This document shows positions 7,540 to 30,904 of a stretch of 64,000 nt of DNA, piece after piece. The translations under genes and the position numbers were made by a program. The notes under the pieces are model-generated. The model was not told the origin of the DNA, did not search any database, and saw only the letters and a list, made by a program, of their open reading frames with translations. The first letter of the stretch is position 1. Each line of letters begins with the position of its first letter. The DNA comes from the human T2T-CHM13v2.0 reference genome, Homo sapiens, in NCBI RefSeq assembly GCF_009914755.1, contig NC_060939.1. One strand, 5' to 3'.

Positions 7540-7823
7540 CTATAAAGAGCTGCCTTTAACTCAATCCCTAACCTAAGACCATTGATTTGGAGTAAGTAGA
7601 GTGGGTCATTCACTAATGTACTTAAAAAAACAAAATCTTGATTCTGACTCAGAGATACCTAGGTTAAGTGTACAGGACACAAAGATTTTGACTGAGGCAC
7701 AGTGTTAAAGATTCGTTAAAATATTTTGTATGCAGCACATGTTAAATTTTTTCACTATGGTAACCATACTTTTTAAGAAACTAAAGCAAAAACTGAAAAG
7801 TAAAACAGGGTAAATATCAATAC

Positions 7824-8176
7824 GGTATTAGTCTGTTTTCACGCCGCTGATAAAAGACATACCTGAGACTGGGAAGAAAAAGAGATTTAATTGGACTTAC
7901 AGTTCCACATGGCTGGGGAGGCCTCAGAATCATGGCAGGAGGCGAAAGGCACTTCTTACACAGGCAGTAAGAGAAAAATGAGGAAGAAGCAAAAGCGGAA
8001 ACCCATGATTAACCCATCAGATCTCGTGAGACTTATTCACTATCACGAAAATAGCATGGGAAAGACCGGCCCCGTGATTCAGTTACCTCCCCCTGGGTCC
8101 CTCCCACAACATGTGGGAGCTCTGGGAGATATAATTCAAGTTGAGATTTGAGTGGAGACACAGCCAAACCATATCA
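7824..8176 (-). mobile_element. THE1A-type (ERVL-MaLR) solo LTR
   Basis: Minus strand begins TGATATGGTTTGGCTGTGTCTCCACTCAAATCTCAACTTGAATT and ends ...GTGAAAACAGACTAATAC; about 350 bp. Confidence 0.9.
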
Positions 8177-8230
8177 AGAACATTATATGAAACATCCTAA
8201 ATGTCAATAAACACATTGTATTAAACATAC

Positions 8231-8297
8231 TATTTTTCTCATGTATCTGTACAATGGAATAATAGGATTGTTGGGCTCTTCCTAGATTATATGGATT
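8231..8297 (-). pseudogene. UBE2Q2P: UBE2Q2 pseudogene fragment: single 67-nt exon (penultimate coding exon of UBE2Q2), unprocessed duplicate
   Basis: Minus strand ctctttcag|AATCCATATAATCTAGGAAGAGCCCAACAATCCTATTATTCCATTGTACAGATACATGAGAAAAATA|gtatgt translates [22 protein letters not shown], versus the recalled UBE2Q2 C-terminus [25 protein letters not shown]/GT sites intact; neighbouring exons not found in the window. Confidence 0.88.
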
Positions 8298-8744
8298 CTG
8301 AAAGAGACATGTTAAATCAAAACTAATTAGGTGAAAATTATTACTATTTATGAATGCATTACCACTGTGCCTAAAAGTACACAGGAAACTGAATATTTCC
8401 ATTTCAAAAACAATTTTAACTTAATAGTCTTATTTCTCAATTATTCTCTACATTTTTATAAGAATAACAAAACCAAAATTGTACCCCAATAAAAATTAAC
8501 AAATCTAACAGTTCATTTTTATAAGTCTTCCTACCACTGGACAACTACAAAGCTTTCTGGTTCTAGAGCCTATCTCCATATTGAGAAATAAAGTTAAAGG
8601 ATGCAATCTGGATGTTAATGAAACTCAAACTCCCTTCCTCATAAATTCTATTAAAACTACAAAATATTACTTTCAGATAAGAAGATATTAAGCTTCCATG
8701 ACTACGCATATGAATGACATTTTAAGTTAGAAATCTAAAGAATG

Positions 8745-20594: not shown

Positions 20595-21222
20595 TTCATT
20601 TTGCTTTCTTATGTCTACTTTCTTTCTTACCACCCCATCGCCCTCTCTTCCTCAGCAAGATGTCAGTTAAGCAGTGTTAATTATGACTGCAACAGGCACC
20701 AGTGCCCAACACATGCAGCCCTACCATCATCCCTATCTCATTTTATAAACCTTTAAAGTGGATTCACTTTCTGTTATTTAACCTCCATAAATGTACATGT
20801 ACCTGTGTCTTATCTACATTTTAACTTGGAAGACTGTTGTACTGGCATGGAGCTGACCATGATGCTGGGGTCACATCACAGCCCCCACCCTTTCTAAGTT
20901 GACATATGGCCATCCCATTAGCTGGAATCCACAGATAGACCTAAGCCTGTGGCACTGAGACAGAATAGATTTTGCATTTGAGAGGTATCTTCTGTGTGAC
21001 TCTTGTTTGAAGGAGGTGGTGATGGTGGGGAGAGGTGACAGAGGTAGGGAGTGCCCTCCAAATGCAAAAATAACAAATACAATGATTGACCATCTGGGAA
21101 TTCTCATACCTTGATTTGTTTTTTAAGCTGTTGCCACAAACCCCCTTTTGTAGCTTTTGCTTTGGGTGGAGGTAGGAGGTAAGGTTTATTCAATCCTGCC
21201 CTGGGTAGGGAGAAAGTTAATC

Positions 21223-21667
21223 TGTAGCAGGACAAGCCGCAGACAAAACCCCTCAGACACTGAGTTAAAGAAGAAAGGGCTTTATTCGGCCAGGAGCTTC
21301 ATTCAGCAAGACTCACATCTCCAAAAACCAAGCTCCCCAAGTGAGCAATTTCTGTCCCTTTTAAAGGCTCACAACTCTTAAGGAGGTCCGCGTGAGAGGG
21401 TCGTGATCGATTGAGCAAGCACCGGGTACATGACTGGGGGCTGCATACGCCGGTAATTAGAACCGAACACAACAGGACAGGGATCTTCACAGTGCTTTTT
21501 TTATGCAAATAATCGACTAGGTCAGGGCTTGATCTTTAACTACCAGGCCCAGGGTGTGACGCCGGGCTGTCTGCTTGTCGATTTCATTTCTGCCTTTTAG
21601 TTTTTACTTCTTTCTTTGGAGGCAGAAATTGGGCATAAGACAATATGAGGGATGGTCTCCTCCCTTA
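21223..21667 (-). mobile_element. LTR2-family (HERV-E/Harlequin) solo LTR
   Basis: Minus strand TAAGGGAGGAGACCATCCCTCATATTGTCTTATGCCCAATTTCTGCCTCC ... GAATAAAGCCC ... GTCCTGCTACA; 4-bp TSD aatc (21219-21222 / 21668-21671). Confidence 0.93.
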
Positions 21668-21935
21668 AATCTAGCCATGTGATTTTTCACAAAAGTAAAT
21701 GGAGCATGCTGCCTTTTCACTTCTGTCAGTGCTTCCACATGGAAACAAAATGCAACACAATTTTTCCAAAACCTGTTCTGATTTAACTCTCCTCTCTGGC
21801 AGTGTTACCCTTAGGGGATAGCCGACTGTCCACAGTCTACTGGAGTTTTCTCTGGTTCGGTGTTTATTTCATTGCTCCTTCTCTTGAATGAGGCTATCTT
21901 ATTCTTTTGGTTTTAAAGGAGTTTATGGTGCCTGT

Positions 21936-21936
<1 letters not shown>

Positions 21937-21979
<43 letters not shown>

Positions 21980-22242
21980 AGATGGAGTCTCACTCTGTTG
22001 CCCAGGCTGGAACGCAATGGTGCGATCTCGGCTCACTGCAACCTCCACCTTTTGAATTCAACCAATTCTCATGCCTCAGCCTTCCAAATAGCCACCATGC
22101 CCGGCTAATTTTTGTGTTTTTTAGTAGAGACAGGTTTTCGCCATGTTGGCCAGGCTGGTCTACAACTCCTGACCTCAAGCCATCCACCCACCTCGGCCTC
22201 CCAAAGTGCTGGGATTACAGGCATGAGCCACTGCACCCAGCC
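21937..22242 (-). mobile_element. AluS with about 40-nt polyT tail and small internal deletion
   Basis: Reverse Alu dimer; degenerate TSD tatggt(g/c)cct(g/c)tcct. Confidence 0.93.
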
Positions 22243-22501
22243 TATGGTCCCTCTCCTGAATTGGCTTACCCCACCAGGTCTGTCTCCTTTGCTTTCTGCA
22301 GCCTGAATCGATTCCTTTGTGTTGATGGGCTTTCCTAAGAGCTTTTCTGAGTTAGTTAACTTTAACTCACCTCTTCGGTGCTCTTCATGCTCTACAGGCA
22401 AGGCTGAGATGCTAAGATTTAAAAAAAGAATGCTGTTTCAGATCAAGTTGATAGCATTTGTTTTCAATATGCATTTTTAAAACATTTTTAAATTTACGGT
22501 T

Positions 22502-22905
22502 TGTCAGGCCTCTGAGCCGAAGCTAAACCATCATATCCCCTGTGACCTGCACATACACATCCAGATGGCCGGTTCCTGCCTTAACTGATGACATTCCACC
22601 ACAAAAGAAATGAAAATGGCCTGTTCCTGCCTTAACTGATGACATTATCTTGTGAAATTCCTTCTCCTGGCTCATCCTGGCTCAAAAGCTCCCCTACTGA
22701 GCACCTTGTGACCCCCACTCCCGCCTGCCAGAGAACAACCCCCCTTTTTCCTTTACCTACCCAAATCCTATGAAACGGCCCCACCCCTATCTCCCTTCGC
22801 TGACTCTCTTTTCGGACTCAGCCCGCCTGCACCCAGGTGAAATAAACAGCTTTATTGCTCACGCAAAGCCTGTTTGGTGGTCTCTTCACACGGATGCGAG
22901 GGAAA
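22502..22905 (+). mobile_element. LTR7 (HERV-H) solo LTR
   Basis: TGTCAGGCCTCTGAGCC... duplicated block gttcctgccttaactgatgacatt x2, aataaa at about 22840, ends ...ggtctcttcacacggatgcgagggaaa; 5-bp TSD cggtt (22497-22501 / 22906-22910). Confidence 0.96.
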
Positions 22906-23852
22906 CGGTTCACTTAGGTATATGAAAGAAGTGTGATTGTATTCAATGACTACAGCAGCACTGTAGCTCTGGCCCTCCCCTAGGGGAGAGAGGTTGATAA
23001 TACTCCATCTTCAAGGGCATTCTTTACAGTGCGCCAGGTTAGTTGTTTTCCCACTGGCATTTCTAAGGAATGCAGTCAGTAGTGATGGAGATGCATTGAA
23101 TTTTATTTCTGAGTCCTAAAAATAGAAATGAATCCTTTAAACTTGTGCATAGTATGTTTACCTTTCCCATAGAGTGGGGTTCCTTCAGACATCCCTTAGG
23201 ATTCTACCTCTGGGTTTTTATAGGCCTTTGGCTAGAAAGAATGAATGTTCCTCAGCTCTCAAGCCAGCTGCACTCAGAAGATAGGAATACCTCAAGGCTC
23301 CTCGCATTTTTCCTATTCCGTTTTCACTGAGACTGATAACATTTTGCTGAGGGCACAGTGACAGAGGAATGTGGCCGTCATTTGCAGCCCATTGATTGGT
23401 TCCCAGCTGGTTCCCACGCAGGAAGAAAAAGCACCCCTGAGCTCTCCTCAGTATTTCCAGATGTAATGAAAGAGGACCTCTTTCTGCACAAAGGCAGCCC
23501 CAGCTTTTGGCTTGGGCAGAGGAGTTCTGATAGTGCTGATTGGTGCATTCATGGGAAATGAATGAGTAGAAGCCACAGTCTTTCAGAACCTGGGCTCTGG
23601 GGAGTGGGAGTGAAAAATAAAGATGCACCTTGTTGGTTTAGTTGATCCCCAGGTTTCTTTCCTTCTGTCAACTTCAGGTTTGTGATCATAGCAACCAGAC
23701 TGAATATGCAAAAGGCTTAGGCGCAAGCAAATCTATAATCTATGCATATTTGAATGGGCTTGGTGACATCATGTACACAAAGTACATTTGGGTAGAAGTG
23801 CATGTGCTAAGTCTCCTTTTCATACTATACTGTCCTTTTCATACTGTACTTC

Positions 23853-24146
23853 TTTTTTGTTTGAGACAAGGTCTTGCTGTGTCTCCCAGGCTGGAGTGCA
23901 GTGGCACAATCACAGCTCCCTGCAGCCTTGAACTCCTGGGCTCAAGTGCTCCTTGTGCCTTGGCCTCCTTGTGTCTAGGGCTACAGGCATGTACCATCAT
24001 GCCTAGCTATTTTTTTTTTTTATTTTTTAATAGTCAGGGTCTCACTATGTTGCCCAGGCCAGTCCCAAATGCCTGGCCTCAAGCAATCGTCCTGCCTCAG
24101 CCTCCCAGAGTGCTGGGATTACAGGTATGAGCCACTGTGCCCAGCC
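23853..24146 (-). mobile_element. AluJ
   Basis: Reverse dimer (gagacaaggtcttgc...gccttgaactcctgggctcaag). Confidence 0.9.
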
Positions 24147-24271
24147 CTGTACTTCCCCTCTTGAAAGAGCCCAAAATATTACCAGCTTTTGGTCATGTGG
24201 CTAGGCCGCTTAGGTAGTTAGAATCCACCAACCCCGGATGCAGAAACCTTTCAGGTGGGGTAAATTTGCGT

Positions 24272-24365
24272 GTTTGTTTGTTTGTTTGTTTGTTTTGAGA
24301 CAGAGTCCCATTCTGTCACCCAGGCTGGAGTGCAGTGGCACAATCTCAGCTCACTGCAACCTCAC
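24272..24365 (-). mobile_element. Short Alu 3' fragment with (TTTG)n tail
   Basis: (tttg)n-gagacagagtcccattctgtcacccaggctggagtgcagtggc. Confidence 0.85.
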
Positions 24366-24604
24366 GTGAAGTAAATTAACAAACATTTTAAACACCTGTG
24401 TGAGTTTGGAATCACACAGAAACTCCTCTCTGCGAGGCTGGGTGGGGCTTTCCCAGCCAGACTAATGGATTTTTTATTTCTCTCTTTTCAAGACTTGCAG
24501 CACATCAGCTTAAAGGGTGAGCCAGCCAGTAGAGAGAAGGGGCCCCATCTAGGAGCCCGTAAATATCAAAGAAATGTGGAGAGACTTTGCTAGAATCCTC
24601 CTCA

Positions 24605-25078
24605 AGGTTGCTTTTCTTGAGGTCCCCAGACCAACAACATCAACATCCATCGGCATCACCTGAGAACTGGTCAGAAAGGCACATTCTTGGCTGGGCGCTG
24701 TAGCTCACATCTGTAATCCCAGCGCTTTGGGAGGCTGAGGTGGGTGGATCATTTGAGGTCAGGTTCAAGACCAGCCTGGACAACATGGTGAGCCAGGCAT
24801 GGTGGCAAGAGCCTGTAATCCCAGCTACTACAGAAATCGAGGCAAAAGAATGGTTTGAACCAGGGAGGCAGAGGTTGCAGTGAGCCGAGTTGCACCACTG
24901 CACTCCAGCCTGGGCAACAGAGCGAGACTGTCTCAAAAAAAAAAAAAAAAGAAAAGAAAAGAAATGCATGTTCCCAGTCCCCACTCCAGGCCTACTGAAC
25001 CAGAAACTGAGAGTGGGGCCCAGCAGTTGGTATTTTAACAGCCTCCAGGTGATTCTGACTAACTCTCAAGTTTGAAAA
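24605..25078. mobile_element. MER5A (hAT-Charlie) split by an Alu (+, about 24689-24961)
   Basis: MER5A motifs catcacctgagaactggtcagaaa... and cctactgaaccagaaactgagagtggggcccagcagttggtattttaacagcctccaggtgattctga on either side of an Alu. Confidence 0.75.
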
Positions 25079-26395
25079 TCCACTTGGGGCTTGCAGGGGT
25101 CACACTCCAGGTGGCCCCTGATGCCCGCTGGTGATATGGGTCCTGTGTGCTGCTGAGCTCAGCATTGTGCAGTCGAGTGGGCTGACTGTGAGACTGGCAT
25201 ATGCTCCCACTGCTGAGAAGCCGCTGAGACCTCCTTCCCTCATCATCTGCGGCCTCCCCAACAAATGACTGCCAAGACATCAGTGAAAAGTCTGTATGAA
25301 GTGGATCCAAATTATTAGCCTGCCTACCACTCCTTGTGCGTCTCATCAATTGAACCCATCCCTAGACCAAGGGCCCTTTAGGTGAAGAACCAGCCCAGAA
25401 GGGAAAGAGAAAAGAGTAGAACCAATGGACCTCCAGATGGGAGCGGCGGTCAGTGAGTAGTTTAGAGCCAGGTACATGTTAGCACCCTGGATACGTGCAC
25501 ATGCCCTGATCTTTGCTTCCCATCTGTGAACTTCAACACCCACGTGGCTTTTTCTTATATCCTTTAAATACATATCTGACTTAGTATCACCTCATAAAAG
25601 ATAAAGAATCATAGTGAAGCAGAAACAAGCCACAGACCAGTGTACACTCAAACTGAAATCCTCTTTTTCCCACCCTCTCCCTCAAGAAAACATCCCTGCC
25701 GACTTGAGCAGTATGATGGCCATAGCGAAGCAGAGTGGCCCCCAGGGATCCCGCTCTGTCCTCGCACACGCGCACACACGAAGAGCAAATGAAGCGGATC
25801 CAAGGAGTGATGACAAGCGCTGCACAGGAATGTTTGCCAAAACTCTTCTGGGGGATCCGAGTGCTCTACCAAGGACATGAGTATGCCCTGAATTTCTGCA
25901 GCTAAGGCCATATAGTCTGGTGACCAAGCATTTGGTTCCTAGCTTCAGTCTTTGGTTCAAATCCCTGCTTGGCAACTTACTACCACACCTTACTACCAAA
26001 ATGTGACCTTGAGCAGTAACTTCCTTAAGCCTCAGTTTTCTCATCTGTAAAACGGGGATGATAATCTAAATCATGAAGTTGATGGAAGGATTAAACGAGG
26101 GTAATAAATGTGAATGTATAGTGTCTGGCTATGGTATGGCTTTATAAATGTTACCTGTGTTAGAGCTGTGCTTTTCAAACCATGGATCGCAACCATTCAC
26201 GGTTTGCAACCAGCATTTTTTTCAAGAAAAATTTTTAATGCATTACATATTGCAGGATAAGTATTGTTTTATGAAACTTTGGGGGTTGCGTGTATATGTG
26301 TTCTGGAATGCAACAGAAAAATATTTCCTCTTGTGAGTTACAATATAGAAGTATGAAATCTCATTTTATAAAAACAGAAAAAAATAACCAACAGA

Positions 26396-30690: not shown

Positions 30691-30699
30691 TACTGGCTG

Positions 30700-30770
30700 A
30701 AAGTCTCAAGAAAGACTGTGCACTCAGGATCATCTTTATGACTAAGTTTACAGTTTCTAGGAAACACAGA
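30700..30770 (-). ncRNA. MIR8067: microRNA hairpin; mature sequence 30740-30761 matches recalled hsa-miR-8067
   Basis: Minus strand CCTAGAAACTGTAAACTTAGTC, matched to miR-8067 from memory; folds with downstream ...ATGATCCTGAGTGCACAGTCTTTCTTG (AGAAA-CUGU/ACAG..UUUCU, ACUUAG/CUGAGU, UCAU/AUGA). Precursor limits approximate. Confidence 0.7.
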
Positions 30771-30904
30771 AGGATAGTAGGGCAAGTTTTAAGACATCAG
30801 AGGAAACCAACAGACAAATCCAGAATAAGGGACATTCCATAATGTGTAAGACAATTGAAGCATGGTCTCTTCAAAGAGTCTTTTTTTTTTTACAAAGAAC
30901 TGTT

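What the first reader, a model, noticed from the sequence alone, without database searches (positions are those of the whole stretch)
21223..22905. Back-to-back divergent ERV LTR cassette (LTR2 minus / LTR7 plus) inside the orphan 3'UTR: candidate bidirectional pluripotency promoter/enhancer
Seen: two intact solo LTRs with perfect TSDs, 834 bp apart and pointing away from each other. LTR2 carries a perfect octamer ATGCAAAT (21503-21510) after a T-run resembling a SOX-OCT composite. LTR7 has the duplicated block and ACAAAAGA (22601-22608). Known: LTR7/HERV-H drives lncRNAs in human pluripotent cells, and ACAAAAGA is the SOX2/3-type motif described for the ESC-active LTR7 subgroup. Inference: LTR7 could transcribe the CBX5-like UTR in sense. 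LTR2 could transcribe it antisense and continue toward the same-strand UBE2Q2P exon and GOLGA duplicon. That would be ERV-driven RNA homologous to the mRNA of a heterochromatin factor that silences retroelements. Caveat: the LTR7 TATA position reads TATGAAA (22769-22775) rather than TATAAAA.
Basis: partly seen in the sequence, partly recalled or inferred. Interest (0 to 1): 0.7.

Follow-up and report, generated by a model that had tools for sequence, protein, structure and literature searches.

The report
Two old solo retroviral LTRs
Two unrelated, long-dead retrovirus remnants (a HERV-E LTR2 and a HERV-H LTR7 solo LTR) sit back to back in a copy of a ZDHHC3 mRNA tail; they are ordinary, except that the older one is already listed publicly as a stem-cell enhancer bound by OCT4 and NANOG.

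Summary
There are two complete solo LTRs with perfect target-site duplications, 834 bp apart, pointing away from each other.

- **Element A** (21223-21667, minus strand) is a HERV-E LTR of the LTR2 subgroup, roughly 25-45 My old.
- **Element B** (22502-22905, plus strand) is a HERV-H LTR7-type LTR, roughly 8-19 My old.
- **Independent insertions:** a paralogous empty site in ZDHHC3 on chr3 confirms both ends of A and its duplicated AATC; at B the parent is diverged and only consistent with one copy of the duplicated site.

- **The host is not CBX5-like.** It is a 5'-truncated copy of the ZDHHC3 3'UTR.
- **The LTR2 octamer is inherited.** It is intact in 24 of 39 relatives. RefSeq lists an "OCT4-NANOG-H3K27ac hESC enhancer" over almost exactly this LTR, so the OCT4 guess has public support.
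- **The LTR7 copy is probably not the stem-cell-active type.** It lacks a 38-bp unit present in the ESRG LTR, and its TATA position departs from 35 of 38 relatives. No enhancer or promoter is listed on its U3.
- **No transcript or CAGE cluster is annotated on either strand.**

The "bidirectional promoter" and "CBX5-homologous RNA" ideas are unsupported. This is known biology of low novelty.

The parts
20599..26362 (+). Host sequence: a 5'-truncated copy of the last exon/3'UTR of ZDHHC3 (not CBX5), interrupted by the two LTRs and by Alus
   Evidence: Colinear BLAST blocks to chr3:44,937,122-44,941,624 at 83.0-89.1% identity. The genome-wide search of the flanks finds only chr3 and chr5. The chr5 ZDHHC3 pseudogene lacks a 2.47-kb chr3 intron, so this chr3 stretch is mature-mRNA sequence. 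CBX5 matches only Alu to Alu.
21219..21222 (.). Left target-site duplication of element A (AATC)
   Evidence: The chr3 paralog carries AATC once.
21223..21667 (-). Solo LTR of HERV-E, LTR2 subgroup, 445 bp. On its own strand the TATA-like box is at 21356-21367 and the AATAAA at 21281-21286.
   Evidence: 39 relatives at 86-91% identity. The same ends and 4-bp TSDs occur in relatives. 6 of 6 related 5' LTRs adjoin a tRNA-Glu primer site. It aligns full-length to print-labelled LTR2 copies and only partially to LTR2B/2C copies.
21503..21510 (-). Octamer (ATGCAAAT on the + strand, ATTTGCAT in LTR sense)
   Evidence: Intact at the aligned column in 24 of 39 relatives. As a bare 8-mer it is not above chance in the window.
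21205..21718 (.). RefSeq functional element 'OCT4-NANOG-H3K27ac hESC enhancer'
   Evidence: Public annotation file. It covers the whole LTR2 plus 18 and 51 bp of flank.
21668..21671 (.). Right target-site duplication of element A (AATC)
21938..22242 (-). Alu insertion with a 41-T run. Its 14-bp duplication lies at 21924-21937 and 22243-22256 and matches 12 of 14.
   Evidence: Absent from the chr3 paralog. The T run is confirmed by TRF.
22497..22501 (.). Left target-site duplication of element B (CGGTT)
22502..22905 (+). Solo LTR of HERV-H (LTR7 type), in the 404-bp structural form lacking a 38-bp unit of the ESRG-type LTR. AATAAA is at 22841-22846.
   Evidence: 38 relatives at 94-97% identity. 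Relatives share the TGTCAGG...GAAA ends and 5-bp TSDs. 6 of 6 related 5' LTRs adjoin a tRNA-His primer site. Alignment with the ESRG 5' LTR is. The same junction occurs in 784 genomic copies.
22567..22646 (+). Duplicated block: 29-nt units at 22567-22595 and 22618-22646 (28 of 29 identical), with ACAAAAGA at 22601-22608 between them
   Evidence: 35 of 38 relatives read ACAAAAGA there. 24 of 38 carry the published AAAAGAAG, and 11 of 38 share the window's AAAAGAAA.
22769..22775 (+). TATA position of the LTR7, reading TATGAAA
   Evidence: 35 of 38 relatives carry a canonical TATA heptamer at this column, and 1 of 38 shares the window's reading.
22906..22910 (.). Right target-site duplication of element B (CGGTT)
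22841..23135 (.). RefSeq functional element 'silencer, tiled region #8292; HepG2 Repressive'. It overlaps the last 65 bp of the LTR7.
   Evidence: Public annotation file.

Best explanation
Two unrelated gammaretrovirus-like proviruses inserted at different times into an old, 5'-truncated retrocopy of the ZDHHC3 3'UTR. Each later collapsed to a solo LTR by recombination between its own two LTRs, which is why each keeps one perfect target-site duplication.

- **The older element** is a HERV-E LTR2, about 25-45 My old.
- **The younger element** is a HERV-H LTR7 of the 404-bp form, about 8-19 My old. It most likely belongs to the published 7d1/7d2 group, which is inactive in stem cells.
- **The back-to-back arrangement** is a coincidence of two independent insertions, with an Alu landing between them.
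- **The LTR2** still carries its family's inherited octamer, TATA-like box and poly(A) signal. In human embryonic stem cells it behaves as an OCT4/NANOG-bound, H3K27ac-marked element with reporter enhancer activity. This comes from public annotation. That the octamer is the OCT4 contact is my inference.
- **The LTR7 copy** is most likely transcriptionally inert.

Nothing indicates a bidirectional promoter. Any RNA made here would be ZDHHC3-like, not CBX5-like.
For: **Identity and boundaries**
-.

**Family**
- The 18-nt site after 6 of 6 related 5' LTRs matches tRNA-Glu(CTC) with 0-2 mismatches for A. It matches tRNA-His with 0-3 mismatches for B.
- A aligns over its full 445 bp to copies labelled LTR2 in PMC4379568 Table 1: 4q35.1 85.9%, CD5 84.0%, EDNRB 80.1%, and APOC1 83% in two blocks that leave positions 333-379 unaligned.
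- A aligns only over positions 120-445 or 174-445 (78-79%) to LTR2B copies, and over 220-445 (72%) to LTR2C copies.
- Its 30-nt U3 stretch has 438 genomic matches.

**Host**
-.

**Age**
- Star-decomposition branch lengths are 0.057 (all sites) and 0.039 (non-CpG) for A, and 0.023 and 0.012 for B.
- Related provirus LTR pairs differ by 0.069 for A, and by 0.030 and 0.068 for B.
- In print, LTR2 integration lies mostly before the hominoid/Old World monkey split (PMC4379568, section 2.1.1). LTR7 waves are dated in PMC8912925.

**Function**
- The RefSeq enhancer lies at 21205-21718.
- OCT4-named elements cover 0.156% of chr15.
- The octamer is intact in 24 of 39 relatives.

**LTR7 inert**
-. No element lies over its U3.
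Against: - The enhancer label comes from a plasmid reporter screen combined with ChIP (PMC6084406, passages read). I infer that paper as the source from the element's name, and I could not see the per-region activity table. Chromosomal enhancer function is therefore not shown.
- The LTR7 subfamily call is indirect. The copy does carry the block ACAAAAGAAATG, one base off the published SOX2/3-associated 8-mer. The text of PMC8912925 does not let me map its 'block 2a/2b' onto the units I see, so 7u1 (85% NANOG-bound) is not excluded.
- Both LTRs keep more CpG sites than about 70% of their relatives. This is mildly suggestive of germline hypomethylation and hence of some activity.
- Absence of a RefSeq transcript does not show absence of transcription in embryos or tumours.
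- The relatives were chosen as the best matches to the window copies, which biases the branch-length ages downwards.
Confidence: 0.75

Rival explanations
1. The pair forms a bidirectional pluripotency promoter. The LTR7 transcribes the host UTR in sense. The LTR2 transcribes it antisense and on towards the UBE2Q2-like exon and the GOLGA duplicon, giving RNA homologous to CBX5 mRNA.
For: - The orientation is divergent.
- The LTR2 keeps a TATA-like box, and both LTRs keep AATAAA.
- A RefSeq OCT4-NANOG-H3K27ac element lies on the LTR2.
- A UBE2Q2-derived exon lies on the minus strand at about 8233-8299.
- GOLGA2P11 is a transcribed pseudogene on the minus strand 37 kb further on.
Against: - The host is ZDHHC3-derived. 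CBX5 shares only Alus with it.
- No transcript, promoter or CAGE cluster is annotated here.
- The LTR7 TATA position departs from 35 of 38 relatives.
- The LTR7 structural form differs from the ESRG-type LTR.
- PMC8912925 reports that strong ESC promoter activity is confined to 7up, and that a 7d consensus was only weakly active.
- Each solo LTR meets its own AATAAA shortly after its presumed start site.
Confidence: 0.05
2. Both LTRs are silent relics in the chromosome. On this view the RefSeq enhancer call reflects what the LTR2 fragment can do on a plasmid, not what it does in place.
For: - ChIP-STARR-seq scores activity from plasmids (PMC6084406).
- The neighbourhood is gene-poor. The nearest genes are MIR8067 at 30695-30771 and pseudogenes.
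- No transcript is annotated.
- The one other chr15 relative examined (L027, with a mutated octamer) has no element.
Against: - The element's name implies recovery from OCT4, NANOG and H3K27ac ChIP libraries, that is, chromatin occupancy at the native locus.
- The copy is only 86-91% identical to its nearest relatives, so reads should map uniquely. The paper kept only pairs with MAPQ of at least 30.
Confidence: 0.2
3. The LTR7 copy is a 7u1- or 7up-like element that keeps the SOX2/3-associated block. It contributes NANOG/SOX binding, so that the two LTRs act together as one composite enhancer.
For: - ACAAAAGAAATG is present, one base off the published 8-mer.
- The tandem units are present.
- 7u1 loci are 85% NANOG-bound, and 7d1/7d2 loci 32-45%.
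- CpG retention is slightly above that of relatives.
Against: - The RefSeq enhancer stops at 21718 and does not reach the LTR7. The only element touching the LTR7 is a HepG2 'silencer' tile.
- The same junction form occurs in 784 genomic LTR copies. That fits the 550-element 7d1/2 group better than 7u1, since all non-7up LTR7 elements together number about 850 by my arithmetic.
- SOX2 binds only 1-3% of non-7up LTR7.
Confidence: 0.12

Closest known systems
HERV-E LTR2 solo LTRs, for example those at APOC1, CD5 and EDNRB (PMC4379568)
   Same: - The sequence is 80-86% identical over the whole LTR.
- It has the same TA...CA ends and 4-bp duplication.
- Relatives use a tRNA-Glu primer site.
- Solo LTRs are the commonest HERV-E form: 29 of 46 in that review's table.
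   Different: - Here the LTR is not known to drive any host gene.
- Its listed activity is as an OCT4/NANOG-bound hESC enhancer. My two literature searches did not find that role described for LTR2 in main texts.
HERV-H LTR7 of the ESC-active 7up type, for example the ESRG 5' LTR (PMC8912925)
   Same: - The ends are the same.
- Relatives use a tRNA-His primer site.
- U3/R/U5 are colinear.
- The block ACAAAAGAA.TG and the tandem TTAACTGATGACATT units are present.
   Different: - It lacks a 38-bp unit and a 9-bp stretch of the ESRG LTR, at 404 against about 446 bp.
- The 8-mer is one base off.
- The TATA position is altered.
- It is solo, not proviral.
- It appears older.
- No activity mark is annotated on it.
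LTR7 7d1/7d2 ('down') subfamilies (PMC8912925)
   Same: - It lacks one copy of the unit that is duplicated in the ESRG LTR (the 7d link is my mapping of the paper's 'block 2b').
- It belongs to a very large class: 784 LTR copies share its junction, against 550 elements reported.
- Its divergence fits the 9-20 My wave.
ChIP-STARR-seq hESC enhancers carried by LTRs, such as LTR7 and LTR9B (PMC6084406)
   Same: It is an LTR-borne element named for OCT4, NANOG and H3K27ac in RefSeq.
   Different: The carrier is LTR2. That family is not named among the enriched families in the passages I read.

Membership tests
HERV-E (LTR2 subgroup) | Proviruses of the family use a tRNA-Glu primer-binding site | tested here: met
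   This cannot be tested in a solo LTR itself. In 6 of 6 related copies that are 5' LTRs, the 18 nt starting 5 nt after the LTR match the complement of the tRNA-Glu(CTC) 3' end with 0, 1, 1, 1, 2 and 2 mismatches. The same sites show 4-5 mismatches to tRNA-His.
HERV-E (LTR2 subgroup) | Closer to LTR2 than to LTR2B or LTR2C | tested here: met
   - It aligns over its full length at 80-86% to three print-labelled LTR2 copies, and at 83% in two blocks to a fourth (APOC1).
- It aligns only partially at 78-79% to two LTR2B copies.
- It aligns only over R/U5 at 72% to two LTR2C copies (labels from PMC4379568 Table 1).
- Five of the eight comparison loci were placed by my own hg38-to-T2T offsets from recalled gene coordinates. 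An LTR was found at each expected place.
HERV-E (LTR2 subgroup) | Match to the curated Dfam/Repbase LTR2 model (463 bp) | not testable with these tools
   No repeat library was available. The element is 445 bp long, against quoted lengths of 463, 483 and 501 bp for LTR2, LTR2B and LTR2C.
HERV-E (LTR2 subgroup) | Integration hallmarks: short target-site duplication and family-typical ends | tested here: met
   The AATC duplication is perfect, and the empty site is present in the chr3 paralog. Relatives show 4-bp duplications and the same TAAGGG...GCTACA ends.
HERV-H (LTR7 group) | Proviruses use a tRNA-His primer-binding site | tested here: met
   6 of 6 related 5' LTRs are followed, after TT in 5 of the 6 (one carries a short extra insert first), by a site matching tRNA-His with 0, 1, 1, 1, 1 and 3 mismatches.
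HERV-H (LTR7 group) | Homology to a named HERV-H LTR, and integration hallmarks | tested here: met
   It aligns end to end with the ESRG 5' LTR, at 80.5% identity counting gaps. The 5-bp CGGTT duplication is perfect, and 5-bp duplications occur in 10 solo relatives that I read.
LTR7up (ESC-active subgroup) | The 8-bp AAAAGAAG insertion carrying the SOX2/3 motif | tested here: inconclusive
   The window reads AAAAGAAA, matching 7 of 8. Among relatives, 24 of 38 read AAAAGAAG and 11 of 38 read as the window does. I cannot tell from the paper's text whether this unit is its 'block 2b'.
LTR7up (ESC-active subgroup) | The same block structure as transcribed 7up loci | tested here: not met
   - It lacks a 38-bp unit and 9 bp that the ESRG 5' LTR has.
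- None of the 39 best ESRG-type copies is among its 38 best relatives.
- That ESRG is 7up is my inference from the paper calling it the most highly transcribed locus.
LTR7up (ESC-active subgroup) | Young age (4-10 My) | tested here: inconclusive
   The branch length of 0.012-0.023 gives 8-19 My depending on rate and sites. This overlaps the upper edge of the young wave.
LTR7up (ESC-active subgroup) | Promoter marks and transcription in hESC | not testable with these tools
   No expression or ChIP data were available. RefSeq lists no enhancer, promoter or transcript over 22502-22840.
SOX-OCT composite element | A canonical SOX core directly beside the octamer | tested here: not met
   The octamer is present, but the adjoining bases read AAAAAAAG in the window and AAGAAAAG or AAAAAAAG in relatives. 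None has the C of the SOX core. The SOX consensus is recalled, not taken from a tool.
Bidirectional promoter | Start sites on both strands | tested here: not met
   Only public annotation could be consulted. There is no transcript, promoter or CAGE cluster in 21000-23300. Absence from RefSeq is weak evidence.
hESC enhancer (ChIP-STARR-seq class) | Listed as bound and active in hESC | tested here: met
   RefSeq lists the element 'OCT4-NANOG-H3K27ac hESC enhancer' at 21205-21718. This applies to the LTR2 only.

The most novel reading that the evidence does not exclude
The octamer is an ancestral feature of the HERV-E LTR2 family, intact in 24 of 39 relatives. LTR2 solo LTRs may therefore be an under-described pool of OCT4/NANOG-bound enhancers in human pluripotent cells. 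This copy, perhaps helped by the neighbouring LTR7, could be a working primate-specific enhancer for a gene in the C2CD4B-TLN2 interval or for MIR8067.
Probability: 0.12. Interest if true: 0.4.

Novelty: already known. Interest (0 to 1): 0.18.

Why it matters
It matters little beyond bookkeeping.

- Both LTRs belong to well-described families.
- The stem-cell enhancer call on the LTR2 is already in RefSeq.
- One modest point remains. The LTR2 octamer is a family-wide inheritance, and at least this copy is listed as OCT4/NANOG-bound. A family-level look at LTR2 in pluripotent cells could therefore be worthwhile.

Tried and rejected
**Rejected readings**
- **CBX5 parentage.** The genome-wide search of both unique flanks gave only chr3 (ZDHHC3) and chr5. 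The 20 kb at the 3' end of the CBX5 locus gave only Alu-to-Alu matches inside 20599-26362.
- **The octamer as a chance-beating motif.** There are 3 in 64 kb against 5.0 expected.

**Steps that did not settle the question**
- **TRF for the 51-bp duplication.** It was not called at score 30. I relied on direct reading.
- **Assigning the LTR7 copy to a Carter et al. subfamily from the paper's text**. The text gives no block sequences, and the supplements and Dfam models were not available. I used junction counts instead: 784 copies of the window-type junction and 1456 of the ESRG-type. That argument is indirect.
- **CpG retention as a sign of germline activity.** The excess is only modest: A keeps 10 of 17 sites against a median of 8, and B keeps 7 of 10 against a median of 6.
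- **All-site star branch for A.** It is inflated because parallel CpG decay in relatives is charged to the window copy. I therefore give non-CpG values too.
- **Family-level test of LTR2 against OCT4 enhancers.** It was not possible. Annotation was held for chr15 only, and only one other chr15 relative was in hand.

**Literature**
- Two searches for LTR2 with OCT4/NANOG/POU5F1 listed no paper whose title or abstract describes LTR2 as OCT4-bound. I opened only one of them, and supplements were closed.

**What I saw of each paper**
- PMC8912925: outline, sections 5, 6, 7, 9 and 11, and passages.
- PMC4379568: passages and part 1 of section 5.
- PMC6084406: passages only.
- PMC12228294: passages only.
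- All others: search listing only.
Full report
**What is there**

Reading 20900-23300 shows two LTR-like blocks.
- Block A starts TGTAGCAGG on the + strand. On the minus strand it carries AATAAA near its 3' end.
- Block B starts TGTCAGGCCTCTGAGCC on the + strand.

Both are dispersed repeats in this genome.
- A found 1248 first-look candidates. Of these, 40 were scored, and 39 relatives were 86-91% identical over about 440 bp.
- B found 2899 candidates. Of these, 39 were scored, and 38 relatives were 94-97% identical over about 395 bp.
- Same-strand pairs 8.3 kb apart (A relatives) and 5.2 kb apart (B relatives) show that some relatives still flank proviruses.

**Boundaries and target-site duplications**

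The unique flanks match only two other places: chr3:44.94 Mb at 86-90%, and chr5:98.24 Mb at 83%.

The chr3 sequence is colinear with window 20599-26362. It lacks A, an Alu and B, so it serves as an empty site, cleanly for A and less so for B.
- At A, chr3 reads GTTAATCTAGCC once. The window has AATC on both sides of 21223-21667.
- At B, the chr3 sequence is diverged at that point, so it is consistent with a single copy of the site rather than proof of it. The window has CGGTT on both sides of 22502-22905.
- The ends agree with relatives. A-type copies all run TAAGGG...GCTACA with 4-bp duplications. B-type copies run TGTCAGG...GAAA with 5-bp duplications.

An Alu with a 41-T run occupies 21938-22242.

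**Family of A**

A solo LTR has no primer-binding site, so I read the junction in relatives.
- In 6 of 6 related 5' LTRs, the 18 nt beginning 5 nt after the LTR match the complement of the tRNA-Glu(CTC) 3' end with 0-2 mismatches. That is the defining trait of HERV-E (PMC4379568, passages; PMC12228294 table, which equates HERV-E with LTR2/2B/2C).
- A aligns over its full length with copies labelled LTR2 in Table 1 of PMC4379568: 4q35.1 at 85.9%, CD5 at 84.0%, EDNRB at 80.1%. APOC1 aligns at 83% in two blocks that leave positions 333-379 unaligned.
- It aligns only over positions 120-445 or 174-445 with LTR2B copies (78-79%).
- It aligns only over 220-445 with LTR2C copies (72%).
- A 30-nt U3 stretch has 438 genomic matches at up to 3 mismatches. 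That exceeds the 302 and 223 copies quoted for LTR2B and LTR2C.

Caveat: I placed five of the comparison loci by offsets from recalled hg38 gene coordinates. An LTR was found at each expected spot.

**Family of B**

- In 6 of 6 related 5' LTRs, a site follows the LTR, directly after TT in 5 of the 6 (one carries a short extra insert first), and matches tRNA-His with 0-3 mismatches. That makes B HERV-H.
- B aligns end to end with the 5' LTR at the ESRG start site. However, B and its nearest relatives lack a 38-bp unit and a further 9 bp that the ESRG LTR has.
- The window-type junction occurs 784 times in the genome at up to 2 mismatches. The ESRG-type junction occurs 1456 times.

PMC8912925 states the following.
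- 7d1/2, 7o and 7bc lack 'block 2b', which is a tandem duplicate in 7up/7u1.
- 7d1/2 comprise 550 elements.
- 7up comprises about 267 loci, by my arithmetic from '33% ... 88 loci'.
- Strong promoter activity in ESC is confined to 7up.

The size of the window's structural class fits 7d1/2 best. 7u1 is not excluded.

**Motifs**

- **Octamer.** In LTR sense it reads ATTTGCAT. It is intact at the same column in 24 of 39 relatives, and most of the rest differ by one base. It is therefore inherited, not a local accident. As a bare 8-mer it is not enriched in the window.
- **Bases next to the octamer.** They are A-rich and lack the SOX core C in every copy. The 'composite' reading is weak. The SOX consensus is recalled.
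- **Other LTR2 signals.** A keeps a TATA-like box one base off the form that 32 of 39 relatives carry. It also keeps AATAAA, which 37 of 39 relatives have.
- **LTR7 block.** In B, ACAAAAGA is a family feature, present in 35 of 38 relatives. The published 8-mer AAAAGAAG is present in 24 of 38. The window's AAAAGAAA is shared by 11 of 38.
- **LTR7 TATA position.** It reads TATGAAA, whereas 35 of 38 relatives carry a canonical TATA heptamer and 1 of 38 shares the window's reading. AATAAA is intact.

**Age**

I used pairwise K2P distances and a star decomposition, which estimates the branch leading to one copy alone.
- **A:** 0.057 over all sites and 0.039 over non-CpG sites.
- **B:** 0.023 and 0.012.
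- **With the 0.3%/My pair rate quoted in PMC4379568**, that is 0.15%/My per lineage, A comes to 26-38 My and B to 8-15 My.
- **With a recalled ape/monkey neutral rate** of 1.0-1.2e-9 per year, A comes to about 39-47 My and B to about 12-19 My.
- **Related provirus LTR pairs** differ by 0.069 (A type) and by 0.030 and 0.068 (B type).
- **In print**, LTR2 integrated mostly before the hominoid/Old World monkey split. The LTR7 intermediate wave is dated 9-20 My and the 7up wave 4-10 My.
- **The host copy** differs from ZDHHC3 by 11-17% and lacks neither partner's insertions. It therefore predates both LTRs.

Biases:
- Relatives were the best matches to the window copies, which shortens the window's branch.
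- Source-lineage differences lengthen it.
- Parallel CpG decay in relatives inflates the all-site value for A.

**The host**

- The chr3 match lies inside ZDHHC3.
- The chr5 ZDHHC3 pseudogene LOC391813 joins a 123-bp chr3 exon directly to chr3:44,942,570 and onward, skipping 2.47 kb. That point is therefore the start of a terminal exon.
- The window copy begins 946 nt into that exon. It runs to chr3:44,937,122 and is followed by an A-rich stretch.
- It is a 5'-truncated copy of the ZDHHC3 3'UTR. The retrocopy origin is inferred.
- The 20 kb at the 3' end of the CBX5 locus shares only Alus with it.

**Function**

The public annotation held for scripts lists 'OCT4-NANOG-H3K27ac hESC enhancer' at 21205-21718. 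That is the LTR2 plus 18 and 51 bp of flank.
- Such OCT4-named elements number 238 on chr15 and cover 0.156% of it, so the overlap is not chance.
- The name matches the ChIP-STARR-seq study of H9 cells (PMC6084406, passages read). That study scored plasmid activity of fragments recovered by ChIP and kept only uniquely mapping pairs. That this paper is the source is my inference from the name.
- A second element, a HepG2 reporter 'silencer' tile, covers 22841-23135, which includes the last 65 bp of the LTR7.
- No transcript, promoter or CAGE cluster is annotated between 21000 and 23300.

The best-supported reading is this.
- The LTR2 acts as an OCT4/NANOG-occupied enhancer-type element in hESC. 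The occupancy and the reporter activity come from annotation. The octamer as the contact point is inferred.
- The LTR7 is inert.
- There is no evidence for a bidirectional promoter.

**Known or new**

Both LTRs are ordinary members of described families. The enhancer is already in RefSeq. My two searches did not find a main-text description of LTR2 as an OCT4-bound family. Supplementary tables, which I could not open, may well hold it.

**Verdict**

The CBX5 part is wrong and the promoter part unsupported. The OCT4 guess for LTR2 is borne out by public annotation. Interest is low.

Noticed in passing
window 20599-26362: A 5'-truncated copy of the ZDHHC3 terminal exon/3'UTR, 83-89% identical to chr3:44,937,122-44,941,624. 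An A-rich stretch follows directly after 26362. It is not annotated as a pseudogene in the RefSeq table given.
   Followed up: yes
window 7600-8740 (minus strand): A genomic fragment of UBE2Q2 (chr15:73.767 Mb, 81-86% identity). It includes the counterpart of a 67-bp coding exon at about window 8233-8299. A dispersed repeat of about 355 bp sits at about 7825-8178, with many copies at 89-91% identity.
   Followed up: partly
window 21223-21667 and loci L005-L043: All LTR2-type copies examined begin TAAGGG, that is TA rather than the usual TG. The window copy belongs to a minority variant of a 30-nt U3 stretch (ATC rather than ATT) within 438 genomic matches.
   Followed up: partly
window 21223-21667 and 22502-22905: Both LTRs keep more CpG sites than about 70% of their nearest relatives. 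A keeps 10 of 17 sites against a median of 8. B keeps 7 of 10 against a median of 6. This is a mild hint of low germline methylation.
   Followed up: partly
L021 (chrX:89.23 Mb) and L037 (chrY:4.04 Mb): Two LTR2 copies with identical flanks differ by K2P 0.021. They are evidently one insertion carried in an X-to-Y transposed block.
   Followed up: no
L096/L097 (chr19:47,738,664-47,739,119), L100 (chr11:61.045 Mb): The RefSeq gene starts of APOC1 and CD5 in T2T fall inside or next to HERV-E LTR2 copies. This is consistent with the LTR-driven alternative transcripts described in print.
   Followed up: no
window 22841-23135: A RefSeq 'silencer' tile (HepG2 reporter assay) overlaps the R/U5 end of the LTR7 and 230 bp of the ZDHHC3-like sequence.
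   Followed up: no
window 21938-21978: The Alu between the LTRs keeps an uninterrupted run of 41 T. This is unusually long for an old insertion. Its 14-bp duplication matches at 12 of 14.
   Followed up: no
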